From the NCBI GenBank assembly GCA_050575255.1, contig JBNZDD010013718.1, forward strand, positions 2,163,670-2,227,669: 64,000 nt of DNA. The letters run 5' to 3'. This DNA comes from Harriotta raleighana. Lineage: Eukaryota. This document shows, piece by piece, positions 40,736 through 59,883 of this stretch. The translations under genes and the position numbers were made by a program. Under the pieces are notes generated by a model. That model had not been told where the DNA came from. It worked only from the letters and a program-made list of their open reading frames with translations, and made no database searches. Every line of letters starts with the position of its first letter. Position 1 is the stretch's first letter.

Positions 40736-40987
40736 GTATTGTGTGAACATACAACTCACCCATCCACTGTAGATTTGGGGAAGGAGAGATAATTGTAAGA
40801 TTTTATGCATAACATATTTTAAGATGATAGAGGAACATGTTGTGGTTAATAATAATTGTGAATAATAATCCATNCATACAACTCACCCATCCACTGTAGA
40901 TTTGGGGAAGGAGAGATAATTGTACGGTTTTATGCATAACATATTTTAAGATGATTGAGGAACATGTTGTGGTTAATAATAATTGTG

Positions 40988-41200
40988 AATAATAATCCAT
41001 TCCCCCCAAAAAAACCACAATAATAAAAATTGGTCATTTTCAATCCACGGCTGTTTGTGGGACGCCGCTGTGCGCAATTGGCTGCCGCGTTTTGCCCACA
41101 AATATACAGTCAATTCACTTTACTGTATATTCTGTGAAGCGCTTTGAGACGTCGATAAGATGTAAAAAGCACTATATCAAATGCAAGGATTATTATTATC
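40988..41200 (+). mobile_element. 5'-truncated copy of the tRNA-SINE family (young, CpG intact)
   Basis: Close match to the core and tail of the 55491/59884 copies. Confidence 0.85.
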
Positions 41201-42098: not shown

Positions 42099-42410
42099 GT
42101 CAGATTCGAGCTCTTAACTAATAAGAGGGAGCAACAGATTGGTTAATGATATAGAACAGACATCAGGTCATTCCTGGTCCTTATGGCAATGTAGTGCATA
42201 CACCAACTAAGTTACAGTGGGGATTCCTTTTTCAATTTCACCATGATGAATTTTAATCAAAATTGCATGAACATTCAATGAGAAGGAATTTGTGTTGTAT
42301 TTTATAAGACCCCCACCCCACCTACTTTTTTTTGTTGCTTAAAAGGAGACTGAACTGTATAATTTGAAGTTGTAGCTAAACGTAATGCCTACACGTTGTT
42401 TTGATCACAG

Positions 42411-42854
42411 TCGCTGCGAAGGAACGGCCGGGACCTGAGCTCTTACCACCTGACGTCCGCTGAATTGACCCGTGATGAATCCGATTGCTGCATGTTGGCC
42501 CCCCCCATGTCCCTCCAGGCCGTGTTCAGCACTGCGGGCGACACCGAGTGCTCCCACAACAGCGAGGGGAGCCACGAGACCGCCGACTCAGGGAGATACT
42601 CGCACGACTCCAGGGAGGAAATGGAATTGGCTCACCTCTCGTCCGTCACCTGCACCACACCCACCTTCGACGGTCCTTTCCTGCCCGCGGAAGTGTCTGG
42701 CTCACCTGTGTCGCCCGCCTCGGAGAAGGCCCAACTCCTGCTGATTGTTTCACACATGACGACAACTACCTCAGACCTGCTGGCCTCGCCAGTGTATCCG
42801 ATGCCTTCTCTAAAAACTGCTGGTGAAAACGATGACAACCAATTTCTAATATAG
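42411..42854 (+). CDS. PRTG: Protogenin last coding exon with stop codon
   Basis: cacAG acceptor in frame with ORF 42465-42854; conserved DTECSHNSEGSHETADSGRYSHDS motif; ends ...DDNQFLI-TAG. Confidence 0.93.
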   Translation, partial: SLRRNGRDLSSYHLTSAELTRDESDCCMLAPPMSLQAVFSTAGDTECSHNSEGSHETADSGRYSHDSREEMELAHLSSVTCTTPTFDGPFLPAEVSGSPVSPASEKAQLLLIVSHMTTTTSDLLASPVYPMPSLKTAGENDDNQFLI

Positions 42855-44992
42855 GCAGCCCGACCGTATTGCGCAGTAATTTATCTGCACAATGGACAAT
42901 GTGCAGGGAACCAAAGAACACTCGGGAAAGCAAATCTGGGTCTTTTTACACCTCCCAGATTCTTACCATGCTTTTGTTTTTATGAATGTTACATTTTTAT
43001 TTTACCCACCATGAATGTCTGTAATTCAAAAAAAAAATGTGAAAAAGGACCGCTACATTTCTTTTGATTGTTTTTTTGAAAGGTATATCACTGGAGCAGA
43101 AATAATATTTCAGGCTTTCTACTGAAAAAAAAGAATCTACCTCAATATTACCGGAATGGTAAACTCCAGTATTTAACAGGTATTGTACTCCTATTACCTT
43201 TATATAGCTGTTCCTTCCTTGCAGCAATATTCGTTTGGCTAAAAGAAATGTTTGTTGATATCGTTCTGTTGTGTTGTAGGGCTGTAAGGACATTGCCATG
43301 AGAGTGTTTGACTAAAGCTCTGTTTACATGTGCAGGTGCCATTCTAAAATGAATACTGAAAGGCAGAGCAGGGCATCCAAAGCTATTTTGGTTCCCTCGA
43401 AGTCTCTTTTATTTAAAAAAAACTGAGGCAGAGAGAAGGCAGCAACAAAAAACCTGAACAGAATATTAAATAGATCCCAAGTACAATTGCTGATAAATAT
43501 TTGAAACCTAATTAAGATCACATTGCAATTTTTTATGTCCCTGTTCGTGGATGGCGGGGGGGGTGGGNTGTTCGTGGATGGCGGGGGGGGAGAGAAAACC
43601 ACAAGCAATGATTGATCAGACCAAAGAGGCTTTGGGTTGAGCAGTTTTAAGGAGCTGTTCACGCAAGTCCATGTAGTGCCTTGTCTGTACACTGAACTAT
43701 TCAAAAGTTTCACCTCCTGTTAGCTTGAAAGGCCCAGCGAGTTAGAGCATTGGTACTGTACTCTCTTTACACTACACTTGTCATTGAAAACAAATGGTGC
43801 ATCTGAACCAATATAAAATGTGGGTCTGGGTACCTAGAGGCGCTGAGTTGAGTATCTGCTGGAATGCATAACGTTCAGATTGAACCAGGCCAGGGTTAAC
43901 TGGAATGATTACCTAAATGCTTCCTGTTCTAAAAACTGGAAAATACGATGCAGATGCAGAAATTAGGAATTACATGCCTCCTACAGTGACCCAAATCACA
44001 CTTGGCCTAGGTAGGTTTTGCTTTCATGCATCCCAGCAAATAGTACATTTTTTTGCTCCTTTATCAGTGAATATGCTGATCATCCACTAGTTCATTTGTC
44101 AGATAAATCACGCTTGTACTTCGTTATTTTGGAATGATTTGTTGTCACATTGGGAAGTTGCTTTAAAAATTTGAAAGCCCCAGTACAGTATTAGACTCTC
44201 CTTGGGTACAGTGTCTGTTGAAGAAACCTAAATTGTGCAAAGCAAGAATGTAATCAAATTGGTTTGAAGTGCCCGGTGTTACTCTAAAGGAGCTTTAATG
44301 TCTTGACTCAGTAGTCTGGGCTACCTGTTTTAAGGCTTCTGTGCACAAACTTTTTTTTTATAGAACTACATCACCCTGACACTTCTTTCATTAATAATGA
44401 AGTACCTAGATAATGAACTGCATTTTACTGATTCATTACGTTAGATTGCATGACATGTACTTGCCAATAATGTCACAATGCGCACTGAATAATTCACTTT
44501 ACAAAAGTTTCTGGAGTACAGTACTAAACCTTTCAAATTCGCTGAGGCCATCTTTAGAATTTTGCTTTTGAATGGTACTTTGATTTAGAAACCTAAATTA
44601 ACAATAAGTTTCAAATTTGATTGCAGTTTTCAAATTGAATGGAAGCTATCTGTTGCTTCGGATGCATTCTGAGAACTAGATGGCCAGCTCTTAGCAGAAT
44701 TTTGCAGAGGTGGAATTGTGAATTCTGCTGTGGAATATGTATATAATAGAAATGACCACCATTCTGCACGAGGATTTTGTCAGTGAAAAAGATAACTGAA
44801 TTCTGCTCCACATAGTTAACGAATGCCCCTGCCTGCCTACCTGCCTACCAATGCAGAACAAATTCACTTCGGTGTTGCCATTAAATCAAGTAACCTCTTG
44901 GTTACTTGTAATCCAAAGAGTACTATTAATCCATCGCAATGCTGCTGGTGTGTTTTCTTTAGAATTGCTTGCATAAAACAGAGCTTTATGAT

Positions 44993-45322
44993 ACCAAAGA
45001 TTCACAGGGAATAGAAGCTGCTACTCTCATGTGCTCTAGCCTTGCACTTCCTGTTTGATACTACCTCTTTTAAAACCTATTTTAGTGTTATTCTTTATCT
45101 AACCTCAGGGATCAATTTGTTACATTTAAACTGCCGCACCGAAATGTGTTGGCGTACTGACAGGGTATCTTGCTAGAACTTTTGATTGAAATAGTTACTG
45201 TGTAGCTTTTAAGAGTTAGAACAGATCACTAGAAATACGTGCCAGTAAATGTTTTGCGATGCCGATTATATTAAAAAAAATATTTTAAAACAAGCTTACC
45301 AAAGAAAATTATAGTGTATATA
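44993..45322 (+). promoter_or_regulatory. Cluster of miRNA seed sites (miR-9 x2, let-7/miR-196, miR-125, miR-10) plus a Pumilio element
   Basis: ACCAAAGA 44993 and 45298; ACTACCTC 45060-45067; CTCAGGGA 45104; ACAGGGTA 45160; TGTATATA 45315. Confidence 0.65.
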
Positions 45323-46586
45323 AAGTTTGCTTCCGTAGGATATTTGTGGGCCACATCATTTTTTACCAGTTGAATTCTAATCTTTGTTTAATGATAGTTA
45401 CTAATCATACAACAGTAGTGACTTGGATGTGTTTGAATAGAAATTGATTGCTTTTCCAATACAGTGTGACATCAATGTATTTGGAGCGTTTGTTTTTTTT
45501 TGGGGAGAGACTAGATTGCAGTGAGAATCTAAACAGCCTTTGGGTGAAAGTGGCTATTCCTCCTTTACTAGCAAAACTGCTGGACCGATATTAATTATTG
45601 AACTTTTCTTTTGATATTGGAAAAACTGGTTTCAAACGAGCATTTTTGCCCTATTCAAATGTAAACTTATTCAGCATTTGACTCTATTTTTAGATGAAGT
45701 GAAACAATGATGTCTTTGTATCGGCTCAAAGAAAGAAAGATCATTAGTATGAACTACTGAGTACAATTCTGGTTAGCTGCACTCTGCTCTTTATAAAGCA
45801 TAGATCAGAAATTAGAGAATATAGTCAGTTTAGCACTTGTCTTTCAGATTAGTGTCATCGCATAGTCTTAGTGCAGGGTGGTATGCAAAGGTAAAAGACA
45901 TATGTCCACATCCAAAGATTTACTTTTTCTTGCTGGACATTTTTTAATCTTAAAATTATCGGGCACTGTGTCTACGCAGTATCTTGAATCTCAGACCTAA
46001 GAACTATGTCACTTTGCACCTTGATGGACAAATTGATTTTTAAAAAATAGCGGATTAAATAAAAAGAGAATTCTCTTGTCGTTCTAAATGTAGTCTGACA
46101 ATGTGCATTTCTACTCCATATTGCAATAAGTACAGGTTTAATATCACTGAACGAGCGCAAGAGCATTCTCTTTCACTGACTGACCGATTTGAGGAAAACT
46201 TCAGATAAGTTGACTGAGTGGCCCTTCCTCTCCCCCCTCCGCCCCCAACAGACTACATCCTAATGCACAACTAAATCTTTTGCATGAATCAAAGTAAAAT
46301 ACTTCAGCTGTCTTTTAAGATTCACTTTAATCTTCAGGTGATTTGATTGAAATCCTGCCATGCAACAACTTGCAGACTCTTCCTCTTGGTGGCAATAGAC
46401 TAATTATCAGCAGAGGTTACATTAAAATGCCTAACTTGATAGCCCCAGACAGAGCACATGAGAGAAAACGTTTAATAACTTTTAAATTTTTTATATATAA
46501 TATATATATATACACATACACCATGTGGCAAAATGATTCCTTCTCTTAACTACATGCGTTTCACCAAGTTACATGTTGCATTCCTA

Positions 46587-46592
46587 AATAAA
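46587..46592 (+). terminator. Candidate proximal polyadenylation signal AATAAA
   Basis: Canonical hexamer inside the putative 3'UTR; usage unverified. Confidence 0.35.
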
Positions 46593-46663
46593 GTGCTTTA
46601 ATATTGAAAACCAAAAATGATGAAAAACCAATGAATTCAGAGTTAAGGTAACTTTATTTTCAA

Positions 46664-46698
46664 ATACAGCTAGAACAGCAGCCCATAAAAACCAAAGA
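46664..46698 (+). promoter_or_regulatory. miR-9-5p target site with extensive 3' pairing
   Basis: ATACAGCTAGA (complement of miR-9 nt 11-21) + 15-nt spacer + AACCAAAGA (complement of nt 1-9). Confidence 0.75.
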
Positions 46699-48179
46699 AT
46701 TTTTTTTTGGCTTACCTTTGTATATCAGACATAGCAGTTTTAGTCCGACGTAACTAGGAAGGGCAGATTTTGTGTCTCCTCGTGAATGTTGTTCGAAATC
46801 CCTTTTTTGTTGTTGTTGTTTTGCTGCAGAAGCGCATTCTCTTATCTGAAGTCAACAACCAGCATGTTTTTTTACCTCTTGATAGCCGCCAGTATATTTT
46901 CCCACCTTTATAATGGCATTAAAGGGAATATGTAAATTTTATAGGAAGCACCGGCTTGAGGAATATTTCAGGCAGGTTCTAAACCAGACACTCTGTGTGG
47001 GTTGCTGGAGGAATGTGCTATTCCCTGCTCCCTGAACATTTGCAAATCTTGCTTTCTAACTAACTGTATTCACCTGTAAGGGAAGCCATTGAAATTTGAC
47101 TGGAGTTTCTGTTAAGCGTGGCAGCTGAAAATGCCTTATGCCATCGACAGAATGTTAAACAGAACAACTGGGACATTTTATCCTTGGCGTTATACCATTT
47201 GCAGAGGGGGAAAATGTCCCCCAAATGTATAGGCAATCCCCCAAATATCTTGAGGAAAATGTCCTGTGTGGCTGATAAAATTTTGCTGGTATTTCATTTG
47301 AATTTAGAGCCGTTTAGTTAAATATATTGTAATAGAAACCACTGCCTCATTTGAATTTGACAAAATACATCTTTTGAAGTATTTGTTGATGCACATTAAT
47401 CTGGAACTGTGTATTAAACTGTCTTGATATAGTATTTTAATTTTTATATAATATGTATTAAACATGTGTGGCTGGATGTCATGTTCACATTTGATGCTTT
47501 ACGGTATCCACACACCTGACCCCTTCGGGTAACCAATGTAGAGATTACCGACAAGTGTTTTGTGTGACTTGCTCATGAAGCCAGGCCAGAAGAGCGGGAG
47601 AGAAAGGTATCTGAACCCGCGAGGGTTTTCTTTACTTTTTGCTATTGTTTTTTTTGAAAAAAAATAAGAACGAACAATATTGTGTTAGTTTTTGATTTAG
47701 AGAATGCTGTTAAGATGTGAACTAAAGGGAAGAAGTGGAGGGTTTGGTGTCTCGTGTTATCTCAGGTGTTCCTGACCTTCCATCTTCAATTGCCAATTGT
47801 CATGTAAAGACAGTGTTTGCGATTCTGCGGACTGGACACGTGGACCTGGATTATATCAAATTTTATTTGTCTCAGGGGATCAGTTCCACTCTTGTGTCCA
47901 ATCCTGTGGAAGAGCCAACGCTTGCCTTGACTTGTGAATGTACCTCATTTATGTCTTTAACTACTTTTTAACTGTTTTATTGAAAAACTGTGTTCCTCTT
48001 CTCCCCACCCCACCCCACCCCTATTTTATAATTAGCAATACAGTGACTGTTGCCTAACATACAGGTGTCTGATCTGTAATCTTGCTGAGTCATGCCAAAA
48101 ATTATAACTCGTCTAAAAAAGCCAAAATGTTTTAAAACTGTTGTAAAATAGTCTGAATTTTGAACGATTGCACAGTTTA

Positions 48180-48185
48180 AATAAA
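48180..48185 (+). terminator. Candidate distal polyadenylation signal AATAAA
   Basis: Canonical hexamer at the end of the repeat-poor AU-rich stretch, just before repeats resume. Confidence 0.5.
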
Positions 48186-49996
48186 GTTTTTCCATAAAAC
48201 GAGAATATTCTGTATCTGCACATTCATTCCGATGTTTAAAAGTATTCTTGCGATTCACATCTTTCAGCTTTTTATCCACAGAAATTTGTATTCATATTAC
48301 ATCAAGCGACTTGTCACTTGAAAACTGATATGACCCAGGATTTTGATTAGTTCACATTCATAACGAAAGAACACCATTTCTTCATTTGAAGCATTTTGGC
48401 ACATTTTCCTATGTACCAGACTGTTGTACGGCTTAGCAAGCACTTGTTGCCCTCCAGTCCCTCACCCAAGTGACTGTTATTCACGCACAAATTTTGCCAA
48501 GCTCATCCACCACAGGGATTCAAAATTGAAATGGATCCAACCAGCATCCATCTACACTACATACTTTCCAGCAATAAAAGGGAGGAAGATTACTTGTTAA
48601 CAGCATAGAAAACCTGAACATTTCACTTTACCGTCAACCAATTTGTACACCCCTGTGTCCCACAAACATCTGTGGAGTGAATGACCAATTCTGTCTGGGG
48701 TTTTGTTGGCCAAATGCACATTTGTGACAATTTACAGTAAATCCAGTTAAATGCTTTTGAGTCAGCCACTGGAAGTGAAAAGTGCTGTAATTTTATGGCA
48801 GTCAGCCTTAGTGTTTGGACAAGGCGAAAACAGACAAGATTTCCATAAGTGTATGCCTCCCTGACACATTGGGAAAGTTGCGATATTAGGAATTATTATT
48901 AACTTCAAGGGAATAAACAAAGGGTGGAATTTTGGCTACAGCACAGCAATAAGGGATAGCAAATGTAAGTGTGTTTAAAAGGATCAATAGTGGCAGCTTG
49001 TGTGGTGTGGCAGGATGTGCTTTCTCTTCCAACACACATGCCTTTGATCTCATCAGGCCATTTGGGGGAAGGGGAGAGAGAAACAGGCAGAGAGGTGGGG
49101 GTTGGGTGGGGGGGGAAGCCTGATGAGCCAATTCACAGCACTTAGATAAGCCAGTTTAGACTGGCACTGACCAGGAGTCTTGGGTCAGCCTTTGTGCTGA
49201 CCATTTGTTTGTGAGTGCGGCCCTGTGGGACCTAAAATACTGGGAAAATAAAAGTATGAAACATCCGGGGAGAGATATTAAATGTTGTTTCAAAAAGTTT
49301 GTGTTCTGCGGCAACTTGGTTTTTCATTTTTGTCTTTTTTAATCTCAAATCGACTCTTATCGACGCAGAAAACCACAATCTATTAGGGGACTGTGGTGTC
49401 GATAAATAAAAGTGGAGACTTCTAAGAGAGAATAAACAAACACTTAACCCAGTGCTATGGAATAGTTGATGCATGGATAAGTAAGTGCAGAGATCAGGGA
49501 AATTGTGGTACAATTAAGGCTGAGGCAATGGCCAAAAAAAAAGGGAAGAAATTAATCGAGGTAAGGAGGGCAGGGTCATTAGAGTTAAGTGAGGGGATAA
49601 AAGAGAAGCTGAAGGAGGCAATGCAAGATGGGAGTGATCAAGCAAGGGTGATCGCTATTCATTGTATGTACTGTAGAATCCTTCAAACAATAGGTGGACA
49701 AGACGAGGGAGAGTTGCTATGTGATTCTCAATGCCTTAATAAGATTGTAATTTTATTCAGGAGCAGAAGGAACGGCTGCAAATTGGCAGAGCAGAGGGAC
49801 CCCTGGTTACTTTTGTAATTGGAAATACACAAGTGTGGGGCCCCTTCACTAGCTGCCAATGAATTCAATTGATGCATGAGTTTAAGCCATTGGTTATGAT
49901 TTTGCAACATGATTTGGGGTAAAGGTTCATACGTCAACTTCTCTAAATATATCAGTGAAACTATTTGCATTTCAACCAAATGCAATAGCAACAAAT

Positions 49997-52690
49997 TGTG
50001 TGTGTGTGTGATGATGGGGGTGGGGGGTGGGAGAGGGAAGTGTGTGAGTGGGGTGTGTTGTGTGTATGCGTATGGTAGTGGGAGGGTTGTGCAAGTGGGG
50101 GGAGGTGGGGAGTGTTGAGTGTGAGGGGGGGGTGAGTGTGTGAGTAGGGGTTGGGTGTATGTGTGTAGGGAGTGATTGTGTGAATAGGAGGTGAGAATGC
50201 ATGTGTGTGTGAGTACGTGGGGGGGGTGAGTGTGTGTGATTGAGTGGGGGGGGTGAGTAGGGTCTGAGTGTATGTGTGTGAGTAGATGGGGAGGGGGAGG
50301 AGGGGGNNNNNNNNNNNNNNNNNNNNNNNNNNNNNNNNNNNNNNNNNNNNNNNNNNNNNNNNNNNNNNNNNNNNNNNNNNNNNNNNNNNNNNNNNNNNNN
50401 NNNNNNNNNNNNNNNNNNNNNNNNNNNNNNNNNNNNNNNNNNNNNNNNNNNNNNNNNNNNNNNNNNNNNNNNNNNNNNNNNNNNNNNNNNNNNNNNNNNN
50501 NNNNNNNNNNNNNNNNNNNNNNNNNNNNNNNNNNNNNNNNNNNNNNNNNNNNNNNNNNNNNNNNNNNNNNNNNNNNNNNNNNNNNNNNNNNNNNNNNNNN
50601 NNNNNNNNNNNNNNNNNNNNNNNNNNNNNNNNNNNNNNNNNNNNNNNNNNNNNNNNNNNNNNNNNNNNNNNNNNNNNNNNNNNNNNNNNNNNNNNNNNNN
50701 NNNNNNNNNNNNNNNNNNNNNNNNNNNNNNNNNNNNNNNNNNNNNNNNNNNNNNNNNNNNNNNNNNNNNNNNNNNNNNNNNNNNNNNNNNNNNNNNNNNN
50801 NNNNNNNNNNNNNNNNNNNNNNNNNNNNNNNNNNNNNNNNNNNNNNNNNNNNNNNNNNNNNNNNNNNNNNNNNNNNNNNNNNNNNNNNNNNNNNNNNNNN
50901 NNNNNNNNNNNNNNNNNNNNNNNNNNNNNNNNNNNNNNNNNNNNNNNNNNNNNNNNNNNNNNNNNNNNNNNNNNNNNNNNNNNNNGGGGGGGGAAGCCTG
51001 ATGAGCCAATTCACAGCACTTAGATAAGCCAGTTTAGACTGGCACTGACCAGGAGTCTTGGGTCAGCCTTTGTGCTGACCATTTGTTTGTGAGTGCGGCC
51101 CTGTGGGACCTAAAATACTGGGAAAATAAAAGTATGAAACATCCGGGGAGAGATATTAAATGTTGTTTCAAAAAGTTTGTGTTCTGCNCTGAGTGTATGT
51201 GTGTGAGTAGATGGGGAGGGGGAGGAGGGGGTTGTGTGTGGGTGAGTGAGTGGGGGGGATGAATAGGATCTGAGTGTATGTGTGTGAGTAGATGGGGAGG
51301 AGGGGGTTGTNCTTATCGACGCAGAAAACCACAATCTATTAGGGGACTGTGGTGTCGATAAATAAAAGTGGAGACTTCTAAGAGAGAATAAACAAACACT
51401 TAACCCAGTGCTATGGAATAGTTGATGCATGGATAAGTAAGTGCAGAGATCAGGGAAATTGTGGTACAATTAAGGCTGAGGCAATGGCCAAAAAAAAAGG
51501 GAAGAAATTAATCGAGGTAAGGAGGGCAGGGTCATTAGAGTTAAGTGAGGGGATAAAAGAGAAGCTGAAGGAGGCAATGCAAGATGGGAGTGATCAAGCA
51601 AGGGTGATCGCTATTCATTGTATGTACTGTAGAATCCTTCAAACAATAGGTGGACAAGACGAGGGAGAGTTGCTATGTGATTCTCAATGCCTTAATAAGA
51701 TTGTAATTTTATTCAGGAGCAGAAGGAACGGCTGCAAATTGGCAGAGCAGAGGGACCCCTGGTTACTTTTGTAATTGGAAATACACAAGTGTGGGGCCCC
51801 TTCACTAGCTGCCAATGAATTCAATTGATGCATGAGTTTAAGCCATTGGTTATGATTTTGCAACATGATTTGGGGTAAAGGTTCATACGTCAACTTCTCT
51901 AAATATATCAGTGAANGTATGTGTGTGAGTAGATGGGGAGGAGGAGGAGGGGGTTGTGTGTGTGTGGGTGAGTGAGTGGGGGGGTTGAGTAGAGTCTTGA
52001 NTTGTGTGTGTGAGTGAGTGAGTGGGGGGGATGAGTAGAGTCTTGAGTGTATGTGTGTGAGTAGATGGGGAGGAGGAGGAGGTTGTGTGTGTGTGTGTGA
52101 GTAGATGGGGAGGAGGAGGGGTTGTGAGTGTGTGTGTGTGAGTAGACAGGGAGGAGGAGGGGTTGTGAGTGTATGTGTGTGAGTAGACAGGGAGGAGGAG
52201 GAGGGGNNNNNNNNNNNNNNNNNNNNNNNNNNNNNNNNNNNNNNNNNNNNNNNNNNNNNNNNNNNNNNNNNNNNNNNNNNNNNNNNNNNNNNNNNNNNNN
52301 NNNNNNNNNNNNNNNNNNNNNNNNNNNNNNNNNNNNNNNNNNNNNNNNNNGTGTGTGTGTGTGAGTAGACAGGGAGGAGGAGGAGGGGTGTGTGTGAGTG
52401 AGTGAGTGTGTGTGTGTGTGTGTGTGAGTGGGTGAGTGAGTGCTTGAGAATGACTGAGATTTATTTTGAGGAGGTGTGTAGTATGGACGTGCTTTCNGTG
52501 TATGTGTGTGAGTAGACAGGGAGGAGGAGGAGGGGTGTGTGTGAGTGTGTGTGTGTGTGTGAGTAGATGGGGAGGAGGAGGAGGGGTTGTGTGTGTGTGT
52601 GTGTGAGTAGACAGGGAGGAGGAGGAGGGGTGTGTGTGAGTGAGTGAGTGAGTGAGTGAGGGGGTGTGTGAGTGAGTGAGTGAGTGAGTG
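49997..52690. repeat. GT/GA-rich minisatellite (GTGTGTGAGTAGATGGGGAGGAGGAGGGG)n, with gaps and a mis-assembled duplicate
   Basis: Repeated unit visible; N gaps 50307-50985 and 52207-52350; single-N joins 51188, 51311, 51916, 52001, 52497. Confidence 0.85.
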
Positions 52691-52743
52691 CTTGAGAATG
52701 ACTGAGATTTATTTTGAGGAGGTGTGTAGTATGGACGTGCTTT

Positions 52744-52851
52744 CTGATTGGCTAATCCATGGCAGTGACCGGAGGCCCCGCTTGTGATTGGCCGTTGCCA
52801 TGGAGATTGTGGGACGCTGATCCGAAAATGTATGAATGAATGTCCACGTGG
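52744..52851. promoter_or_regulatory. Orphan promoter-like element: two CCAAT boxes, an RFX X-box and an E-box
   Basis: CTGATTGGCT 52744, GTGATTGGCC 52784, GTTGCCATGGAGAT 52794-52807, CACGTG 52846; locally CpG-rich. Confidence 0.6.
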
Positions 52852-53069
52852 GTCACCAGTGTGTGATCCTGCTCAGCTTTCCCACACAACACATACACTC
52901 GGCTGGGAAATCATTCATATCTTTTAATTCACCGAAAAAAATGGATTCTCACAGAGTCAGTTGGTTTGGGGACAGTTTCTTTGTTTTAAAAACACAGGTT
53001 TTTCTTTTTTTAAAAAAAACACACACACAGATCCTGAAATCCCAATTTGATATAATATACTACTGATGT

Positions 53070-59282: not shown

Positions 59283-59883
59283 CATCAGCAAGAGATCCTG
59301 GATCAGCAAGAGTTCCTCTCAGTCTTCCATCAATCATTCGGCTTTCAGCTGCAACTCAAATTGGTATTGATTCGAAAAAGTTTCCGGGAGTAAAGTGAAA
59401 CGTGGAAATGTGTAGAGTCTCCTTATGTTAAGTGAGGCTTCGAATGCTGGAAAACCAACAATGAATCAGTATGTATGAATCAGCTTCACAAATTCTCCCG
59501 CATTGCCCGGATGACTGGCTTCCTAATGCAAAGCCAACTTGATCAGCAAGTCACCAAAGAGAGTCATAGGATCATTAATCCATTGGCCGAGGCCTTAGCC
59601 AAGAGTCACAGTTGAGGTTCGGACAAGGTACGAGTCGATAATTATTCAAAGGTTCTTGTCTCCTTTACTTCTGTGCTTATCAGTGAAATCAATATGCGAG
59701 ATACAGGCACACACATACATTTTCTTTGCTTGCCTACTTTCTCAGCCCGTTTCAAGTAATTGAGAAACAATCACCCGCTTGGGCACCTAACAGAACTCTA
59801 CAATCAGCACATCAACCACTGGCCAGTGGGCTGAATTTAGGCAGCCAATCGATTCTGTAATCTCCTCTATGTTTAGAGGCTTT

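What the first reader, a model, noticed from the sequence alone, without database searches (positions are those of the whole stretch)
46660..46698. miR-9 site with perfect seed plus 11-nt 3' pairing across a 15-nt loop: candidate TDMD trigger or high-affinity site in the PRTG 3'UTR
Seen: TC-AA-ATACAGCTAGA-acagcagcccataaa-AACCAAAGA. miR-9-5p is UCUUUGGUUAUCUAGCUGUAUGA (complement TCATACAGCTAGATAACCAAAGA). Nt 1-9 match 46690-46698, nt 11-21 match 46664-46674 perfectly, and nt 22-23 could pair with TC at 46660-46661. Only nt 10 is unpaired, opposite a 15-nt target loop. Established: seed plus long 3' pairing with a central bulge is the architecture of ZSWIM8-dependent TDMD triggers (e.g. Cyrano/miR-7, Nrep/miR-29b), and PRTG is a reported miR-9 target marking early neural progenitors. 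Inference: PRTG mRNA may degrade or sequester miR-9 early and then be silenced by it later, a mutual-antagonism switch for neural timing. The loop is longer than in most known triggers, so it may simply be a very strong repressive site.
Basis: partly seen in the sequence, partly recalled or inferred. Interest (0 to 1): 0.85.

Follow-up and report, generated by a model that had tools for sequence, protein, structure and literature searches.

The report
Long-loop miR-9 site in protogenin mRNA
The tail of a cartilaginous fish's protogenin gene carries five perfect seed matches for the brain microRNA miR-9, and one of them has an unusually long second match across a 15-base loop; it likely works as a strong silencing site rather than a signal that destroys the microRNA.

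Summary
The genome's own miR-9-5p pairs nt 1-9 with 46690-46698 and nt 11-21 with 46664-46674, across a 15-nt loop. The gene is protogenin (PRTG). The site is one of five 8mers in a 5.3-kb 3' UTR (0.15 expected); PRTG silencing by miR-9 is published. The 11-nt 3' block is rare per site (about 1e-5) and is the only such match in the genome outside the three mir-9 genes. However, 0.3-0.4 are expected genome-wide, and conservation could be read in only one informative relative (about 4% divergent; both blocks intact; weak evidence). Against a degradation (TDMD) trigger: validated loops are 3-11 nt; ZSWIM8 binding falls about 3.4-fold from a 4-nt to a 10-nt loop; miR-9-5p does not rise in Zswim8-null mouse embryonic brain; six other sites favour decay of the mRNA. 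For it: 3' pairing is trigger-strength (-16.9 kcal/mol), and early stages are untested. Verdict: likely a silencing site with long-bridge 3'-supplementary pairing (0.5), or an ordinary 8mer with a chance block (0.3); TDMD about 0.12. No RNA data show that the site is in the mRNA. The scan has no note on this DNA; it gave a similar reading for a shark miR-148 site.

The parts
42411..42854 (+). Last coding exon of protogenin (PRTG); stop codon ends at 42854; exon start inferred from the AG at 42409-42410
   Evidence: ORF list; sequence; homologs (91% to C. milii protogenin over 140 aa)
42855..48200 (+). Inferred 3' UTR, up to the distal poly(A) signal
   Evidence: Inferred from the stop codon and the AATAAA at 48180; no RNA evidence
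46691..46698 (+). miR-9-5p 8mer seed site (nt 2-8 plus A1); 46690 can also pair with nt 9
46675..46689 (+). 15-nt A/C-rich target loop (offset +14)
   Evidence: one substitution (46687) in organism C
46664..46674 (+). 11-nt perfect complement to miR-9-5p nt 11-21 (12 nt, nt 10-21, for the L002 variant, using 46675)
   Evidence: no difference listed in organisms A and C
42910..42917 (+). miR-9-5p 8mer, longest 3' run 3 nt
43620..43627 (+). miR-9-5p 8mer, longest 3' run 3 nt
44913..44919 (+). miR-9-5p 7mer-A1
44993..45000 (+). miR-9-5p 8mer, longest 3' run 4 nt
45298..45305 (+). miR-9-5p 8mer, longest 3' run 4 nt
45912..45918 (+). miR-9-5p 7mer-A1
43137..43144 (+). let-7 8mer; further let-7 7mers at 45061-45067 and 47941-47947
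   Evidence: let-7 taken from the genome; sites
46587..46592 (+). Proximal AATAAA, 72 nt before the 3' block; poor context (no upstream TGTA, A-rich downstream, predicted inside a stem)
48180..48185 (+). Distal AATAAA with two upstream TGTA and a U-richer downstream stretch; likely main poly(A) signal
   Evidence: sequence context only

Best explanation
The site is one of five perfect miR-9-5p seed matches downstream of the protogenin stop codon, and it likely acts as a silencing site whose second, 11-base match is predicted to strengthen binding across the long loop rather than to trigger destruction of miR-9. Steps: (1) Argonaute-miR-9 binds the 8mer (site shown; binding inferred from canonical rules and from published repression of human PRTG). 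(2) The A/C-rich loop bulges out and nt 11-21 pair with the upstream block, the positive-offset form of 3'-supplementary pairing (predicted; bridges up to 15 nt worked in vitro for another miRNA). (3) Together with four other 8mers, two 7mers and three let-7 sites this lowers PRTG as miR-9 rises in neural progenitors (inferred from mouse and human). (4) The long loop gives a duplex path that ZSWIM8 recognises poorly (extrapolated from 0-10-nt loops).
For: Five 8mers against 0.149 expected, 0 of 2000 shuffles reaching five; one 8mer in the other 57.7 kb of the + strand and none on the - strand. Human PRTG 3' UTR reporter is repressed by miR-9 and seed mutation removes this (PMC3848287); Prtg is a miR-9/let-7 target in retinal and spinal progenitors. 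The 3' block is rare per site, 1.3e-5, and unique in the genome outside mir-9 genes. AGO2 tolerates bridges of 1-15 nt with more than 10-fold affinity gain for GC-rich supplementary pairing, and more repression up to 15 nt (10.1101/476960). Pairing that starts at nt 11 needs a positive offset (PMC8940178), as here. Both blocks have no listed change in organism C, whose single change inside the site is in the loop. Against TDMD.
Against: Affinity gain falls steadily beyond offset +4, and with AU-rich supplementary pairing a 10-nt bridge gave only 1.9-fold, so the gain at +14 may be small. The block would be intact in organism C by chance with probability 0.62-0.84, so selection on it is not shown. 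About 0.3-0.4 such matches are expected per genome. In a 400-nt fold the seed match (0.92) and the block (0.68) are predicted largely paired within the mRNA. No RNA data show that transcripts include the site. The 3' duplex (-16.9 kcal/mol) is as strong as those of validated triggers (-9.6 to -17.1 by another program).
Confidence: 0.5

Rival explanations
1. An ordinary conserved 8mer silencing site; the 11-nt block upstream is a coincidence that adds little or nothing.
For: 0.28-0.40 exact matches expected genome-wide. At 1.3-2.5e-5 per site, tens of thousands of conserved miRNA sites (number recalled; the source paper was not held) give roughly one such case per genome over all miRNAs. Offset +14 is far from the optimum of +4. 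The whole 46536-46730 stretch, not only the block, is slow in organism C (3 changes in 195 nt against 14 in the next 245; Fisher p=0.026).
Against: The one genome-wide match falls on a miR-9 8mer in a UTR that is 30-fold enriched for miR-9 8mers; within this UTR the chance is about 1e-4. For miR-9 alone the chance expectation is far below one.
Confidence: 0.3
2. A ZSWIM8-dependent degradation (TDMD) trigger: PRTG mRNA, abundant in early progenitors, destroys the first miR-9 molecules and is silenced later when miR-9 wins.
For: 8mer seed, 11 contiguous Watson-Crick 3' pairs (12 of 13 validated triggers have at least 6), 3' energy -16.9 kcal/mol, ratio to an ideal trigger 0.82 by my approximation, location in a 3' UTR. 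A 10-nt-loop CYRANO variant still bound ZSWIM8 about four times better than seed-only (0.32 against 0.08). TDMD and target decay compete and shift with relative abundance (PMC6175985), which would allow an early window. Known triggers were mostly found by looking for known shapes.
Against: Loop 15-16 nt against 3-11 in validated triggers and 2-8 in TDMDfinder. ZSWIM8 co-IP means 1.08, 0.73, 0.41, 0.32 for loops of 4, 6, 8, 10 nt. Score under my version of the Lin et al. rules 4.0, against 9.5 for the same pairing at a short offset. miR-9-5p logFC -0.15, FDR 0.97, in Zswim8-null mouse brain, where miR-7a-5p is +1.90; near-equal paired columns at E18.5. Six further canonical sites favour cooperative decay of the mRNA. 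nt 22-23 are unpaired in the predicted duplex. The mouse data are indirect: whether mouse has this block is unknown, and late embryos express little Prtg (recalled).
Confidence: 0.12
3. The site lies mostly outside the mRNA because the AATAAA at 46587 is used; or it is part of an alternative-polyadenylation switch in which only the long isoform carries the strongest site.
For: Canonical AATAAA 72 nt upstream of the block, with no change listed in organism C.
Against: No TGTA in the 120 nt upstream, downstream stretch 53% A and 20% U, hexamer predicted paired (0.99); the distal AATAAA at 48180 has two TGTA and 42% U downstream. Sequence alignable in three other organisms continues to at least 47100, and a let-7 7mer lies at 47941.
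Confidence: 0.05
4. A decayed antisense copy of a mir-9 hairpin that gave rise to the site.
For: Nine bases of the loop equal the reverse complement of the L003 precursor just upstream of its mature arm (P 0.012-0.026 in four post-hoc tests); a weak echo of the 3p arm follows the block on the - strand.
Against: With both blocks fixed and flanks randomised, the best alignment to the three precursors is no better than the null under four scoring schemes (P 0.78-0.95); 3p-arm similarity P 0.11-0.14; no Rfam match in the window; the - strand folds weakly (-9.4 kcal/mol).
Confidence: 0.03

Closest known systems
Canonical miR-9 (with let-7 and miR-125) repression of PRTG in human, mouse and chick cells (PMC3848287; review PMC3760135 citing La Torre 2013; bioRxiv 10.64898/2026.10.02.755877)
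   Same: Same gene, same miRNA, several seed sites in the 3' UTR, let-7 sites alongside.
   Different: The passages read describe seed sites only. Whether the mammalian UTR has the long-offset 3' block could not be checked.
Seed plus 3'-supplementary sites with a long bridge / positive-offset binding mode (10.1101/476960; PMC8940178)
   Same: Perfect seed, 3' pairing that starts at nt 11, extra target bases looped out; bridge length at the 15-nt limit shown to work.
   Different: Those were synthetic targets for other miRNAs, with 4-nt supplementary pairing or an optimum at +4. The natural examples named there have offsets of +1 to +2. Here a natural site has 11 pairs at +14.
ZSWIM8-dependent TDMD triggers (Cyrano/miR-7, Nrep/miR-29b; PMC10899785, PMC13083262)
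   Same: 8mer seed, at least 6 contiguous 3' pairs, 3' energy in range, 3' UTR location.
   Different: Loop 15-16 nt against 3-11; only nt 10 unpaired in the miRNA; six more canonical sites on the same mRNA; miR-9-5p not ZSWIM8-sensitive in the mouse data seen.
TDMDfinder predictions for miR-9-5p (PMC8887481, supplement)
   Same: Six human miR-9-5p pairs are predicted (AMMECR1, ERBB2IP, KCNN3, ONECUT2, SIRT1, SLC30A5), none high-confidence.
   Different: No PRTG/miR-9 pair is listed. The pipeline allows only 2-8-nt bulges, so it could not have listed a site like this one.

Membership tests
Canonical miRNA 8mer target site | Perfect match to nt 2-8 followed by A | tested here: met
   46691-46698 against the genome's own miR-9-5p
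Canonical miRNA 8mer target site | Lies in the 3' UTR of an expressed transcript | tested here: inconclusive
   3.8 kb after the stop codon; distal poly(A) signal has the better context; no RNA data
Canonical miRNA 8mer target site | Seed kept in related species above background | tested here: inconclusive
   Intact in organisms A and C, too close to be informative; five 8mers against 0.15 expected points to selection on the set
Canonical miRNA 8mer target site | Seed-dependent repression | not testable with these tools
   Shown for the human UTR in PMC3848287, not for this site
3'-supplementary site, positive-offset mode | Contiguous pairing that includes nt 11/13-16 | tested here: met
   nt 11-21
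3'-supplementary site, positive-offset mode | Bridge within the range shown to add affinity (1-15 nt) | tested here: inconclusive
   15 nt if nt 9 pairs, 16 if not; at the limit, and far from the +4 optimum
3'-supplementary site, positive-offset mode | Measured gain in affinity or repression from the 3' block | not testable with these tools
   Needs a binding or reporter assay
ZSWIM8-dependent TDMD trigger | Seed pairing | tested here: met
   8mer
ZSWIM8-dependent TDMD trigger | At least 6 contiguous 3' pairs, energy -9.6 to -17.1 kcal/mol | tested here: met
   11 pairs, -16.9 kcal/mol by RNAduplex; range (another program)
ZSWIM8-dependent TDMD trigger | Central loop of 3-11 nt (2-8 in TDMDfinder) | tested here: not met
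   15-16 nt; binding falls with loop length
ZSWIM8-dependent TDMD trigger | The miRNA rises when ZSWIM8 is lost | tested here: inconclusive
   No rise in mouse embryonic brain; no data for this species or for early stages
ZSWIM8-dependent TDMD trigger | 3' block conserved across species | tested here: inconclusive
   Intact in organism C (chance 0.62-0.84); organism D covered but its rows were cut from the output; organism B not covered
ZSWIM8-dependent TDMD trigger | Site deletion raises the miRNA at physiological expression | not testable with these tools
   Needs knockout or site mutation

The most novel reading that the evidence does not exclude
A natural TDMD trigger with a 15-16-nt loop, longer than any validated one and invisible to pipelines that cap the bulge at 8 nt. 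PRTG mRNA would clear early miR-9 (best the genome's nt-10 variant, which pairs nt 1-21 without a gap) and set a threshold for the early-to-late neural progenitor switch, before its six ordinary sites let miR-9 silence it.
Probability: 0.1. Interest if true: 0.8.

Novelty: new variant of a known kind. Interest (0 to 1): 0.33.

Why it matters
On the likely reading it matters modestly. It extends the known miR-9/let-7 brake on protogenin to a cartilaginous fish. It also offers a natural test case for a question so far studied with synthetic RNAs: whether Argonaute uses strong 3' pairing across a 15-base loop, and where strong silencing ends and miRNA destruction begins. If the block proved conserved across jawed vertebrates, prediction tools that cap the loop would be missing a class of sites. 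If it destroyed miR-9, it would add a feedback switch to neural developmental timing.

Tried and rejected
Rfam scan of the window: 0 matches at gathering score. Hairpin-relic origin: rejected. Pairing of nt 22-23 with TC: not in the minimum-energy duplex. miR-9-3p site lists: discarded, because the 3p arm was taken 1-2 nt out of register; true miR-9-3p sites were not counted. Hairpin over the proximal AATAAA (46574-46672, -18.5 kcal/mol, z -3.2): only fifth of 103 UTR windows in the scan (z -2.4 there), and two changes in organism C (46646, 46647; the second shared by D) break predicted pairs, so it is not claimed as a conserved structure. Organism B (X6) has no cover at the site, which proves nothing. 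No base-level reading for organism D and no RNA reading were obtained. CLASH-type supplements: PMC4674787 has 3 PRTG rows, all in the Huh-7.5 file (cut when stored); the 2 seen are miR-16 and miR-320a. PMC12863257: 0 hits in 2 small files. Neither samples early neural tissue as far as seen, so these blanks are uninformative. Searches for a report of this site or of a vertebrate miR-9 trigger: 'prtg'+'mir-9' (55 papers, 25 listed); 'target-directed'+'zswim8'+'mir-9'+'trigger' (59, 40 listed); 'zswim8'+'mir-9-5p' (9, 8 listed); 'tdmdfinder' (4). No title or abstract start shown names one; most were not opened, and subscription journals are not held. Friedman 2009 was not held. Earlier scan notes: none for relatives of this stretch, none with protogenin/PRTG.

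Full report
Observation. The miRNA was taken from the genome: Rfam mir-9 (RF00237) matches three loci over the cut-off (65 candidates scored, so a lower bound). L001 and L003 carry the canonical 23-nt 5p arm; L002 differs at nt 10. Canonical miR-9-5p pairs nt 1-9 with 46690-46698 and nt 11-21 with 46664-46674, leaving nt 10 and a 15-nt target loop; duplex energy -24.3 kcal/mol against -36.7 for a perfect match and -11.5 for the seed part alone. The L002 variant pairs nt 1-21 without a gap across a 14-nt loop (-26.3). The predicted duplex does not use the TC opposite nt 22-23.

Gene. FN3 exons lie at 35.8-39.4 kb and a transmembrane-like exon at 40.6 kb. The last exon gave 10 hits among 443 candidates: 9 named protogenin or protogenin-like, 1 named IGDCC3; 88-92% identity to Callorhinchus milii proteins, 51-66% to sharks and rays. 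The window is therefore inferred to come from a holocephalan (chimaera-like) fish. The stop codon ends at 42854, so the site lies 3.8 kb into the inferred 3' UTR.

Between 42855 and 48200 lie five miR-9-5p 8mers and two 7mer-A1 sites. Shuffles give 0.149 8mers on average and 0 of 2000 reach five; the other 57.7 kb of the + strand hold one. With let-7 taken from the genome, the UTR also has one 8mer and two 7mers. Only the site at 46691 has long 3' pairing; the other six reach 3-4 nt. [quoted passage not shown]

Is the 3' block more than chance? Per site, at least 11 contiguous pairs within offsets -2 to +14 has probability 1.3e-5 (2.5e-5 to +30); for seven sites about 1e-4. The 3' duplex (-16.9 kcal/mol) was matched by 1 of 20,000 shuffled contexts; the whole-site energy by 0.3% of 10,000. 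A genome search for block, 0-30 bases, 8mer gave 4 matches: the three mir-9 genes and this site; the reversed control gave 0. The chance expectation for that pattern is 0.28-0.40. So the match is not surprising as a genome-wide event, but its position on a miR-9 8mer in a miR-9-rich UTR is. Over all miRNA families (tens of thousands of conserved sites; recalled) about one such case per genome is expected, so chance remains a serious rival.

Conservation. 24 runs were listed and 4 laid. Organism A (X4): a low-depth contig over 46612-46722 with no difference; too close to inform. Organism C (X10): one contig over 46536-46975 with 19 substitutions and 9 gap letters; 17 of the 19 and all gap letters are displayed. 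Inside the site the only listed change is in the loop (46687); 3 bases are inserted just after 46698. Both blocks would survive at this distance by chance with probability 0.41-0.73, the 3' block alone 0.62-0.84. The surrounding 195 nt are slower than the next 245 (3 against 14 changes, p=0.026). Organism D (X13) has one contig across the site (46269-46832; 42 substitutions, 24 gap letters), but its rows for the site were among the 51 substitutions and 13 gaps not shown, so its state is unknown. Organism B had no cover. No shark or bony-vertebrate DNA was within reach. Selection on the block is neither shown nor excluded.

Is the site in the mRNA? An AATAAA at 46587 lies 72 nt before the block. 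It has no TGTA in the 120 nt upstream and an A-rich (53%), U-poor (20%) downstream stretch, and is predicted paired; the AATAAA at 48180 has two TGTA and 42% U downstream. Alignable sequence continues past 47100 in three organisms. This favours the distal signal, by sequence alone; there is no RNA evidence.

Trigger or target? For TDMD: 8mer seed, 11 contiguous pairs (12 of 13 validated triggers have at least 6) and 3' energy at the strong end of the validated range, -9.6 to -17.1 by another program (PMC10899785, section 10); ratio to an ideal trigger 0.82, or 0.89 for the variant, in my approximation of the TDMDfinder measure. Against: validated loops are 3-11 nt; TDMDfinder requires 2-8 (PMC8887481, passages); Lin et al. 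penalise offsets over 3 (PMC13041716, passages), which in my version gives 4.0 instead of 9.5 (their cut-off was not seen). In the reconstituted system, ZSWIM8 co-IP with CYRANO loops of 0, 2, 4, 6, 8, 10 nt averaged 0.26, 0.88, 1.08, 0.73, 0.41, 0.32, against 0.07-0.10 for seed-only (PMC13083262, passages and source-data rows; one supplementary PDF could not be searched). Nothing as long as 15-16 nt was tested; at 10 nt binding was still about four times seed-only. In Zswim8-null mouse brain miR-9-5p has logFC -0.15 (FDR 0.97) while miR-7a-5p has +1.90; trimmed fractions 0.112 and 0.109 (PMC10499020, supplement rows; 2 of 8 tissue rows seen, heart logFC -1.48, FDR 0.15). In PMC10620050 miR-9-5p occurs once in the supplements, in the abundance sheet: forebrain 146,836 and 142,294 CPM, hindbrain 111,223 and 97,877, with miR-9-3p moving as much or more; genotype order was not shown. 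These mouse data are indirect. mRNA decay, but not TDMD, gains from several sites, and the two compete (PMC6175985, passage), so six extra sites would shorten the life of a would-be trigger.

Mechanism proposed. AGO2 has separate seed and supplementary chambers that a target loop of 1-15 nt can bridge; with GC-rich supplementary pairing, bridges up to 15 nt gave more than 10-fold higher affinity and some extra repression, with AU-rich pairing only 1.9-fold at 10 nt (10.1101/476960, passages). Pairing that begins at nt 11 needs a positive offset, peaks at +4 and declines steadily beyond (PMC8940178, passages). The site fits this mode at its far end. Shown here: the pairing potential, the site cluster, the gene. 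Inferred: inclusion in the mRNA, AGO binding, a gain from the block, silencing in neural progenitors, poor ZSWIM8 recognition. A caution: local folding predicts the seed match partly hidden (probability unpaired 0.067, against 0.04-0.35 for the other six sites; mean paired 0.92 in a 400-nt fold).

Rejected. A relic of a mir-9 hairpin: a 9-nt loop match to the L003 flank has post-hoc P 0.012-0.026, but whole-region alignments are no better than null (P 0.78-0.95).

Novelty and scores. miR-9 silencing of PRTG is known. A natural 8mer with 11 3' pairs at offset +14 is an unusual variant; the searches showed no report of it (listings only for most papers), and the TDMDfinder tables list six human miR-9-5p pairs, none with PRTG. 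Supplements of the bioRxiv preprints were not seen. Long-bridge silencing site 0.5; ordinary site with chance block 0.3; TDMD trigger 0.12; outside the used UTR 0.05; relic 0.03. Interest 0.33; 0.8 if the trigger reading held.

Noticed in passing
L002:1501-1577 (- strand; G000:C13630): One of three mir-9 genes has U instead of A at nt 10 of the 5p arm; this variant pairs nt 1-21 of the site without an unpaired miRNA base. Whether it is expressed is unknown.
   Followed up: partly
window 46574-46672: Predicted stem-loop (-18.5 kcal/mol, z -3.2) that pairs the proximal AATAAA with a 9-nt complement ending just before the miR-9 block; could hide the signal, but two changes in organism C break pairs.
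   Followed up: partly
window 47124-47264: Most stable 99-nt window of the UTR (z -5.35): a perfect 10-nt inverted repeat (47170-47179 / 47211-47220) with a third copy of one arm at 47254-47264; possibly a small mobile-element remnant or a structured element.
   Followed up: partly
window 46991-47150: Stretch that aligns in organisms B, C and D at about 85-92%, with extra contigs whose flanks differ, suggesting a repeat-derived piece inside the UTR.
   Followed up: no
window 46675-46683 and L003:1502-1510: Nine loop bases are the reverse complement of the mir-9 L003 flank next to its mature arm; post-hoc P 0.012-0.026.
   Followed up: yes
window 40750-41000, 43550-43590, 49100-52900: Near-identical duplicated stretches next to Ns and long N runs, most likely assembly artefacts; the nearest N is 3 kb from the site.
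   Followed up: no
window 59553-59560: The only miR-9-5p 8mer on the + strand outside the PRTG UTR; context not examined.
   Followed up: no
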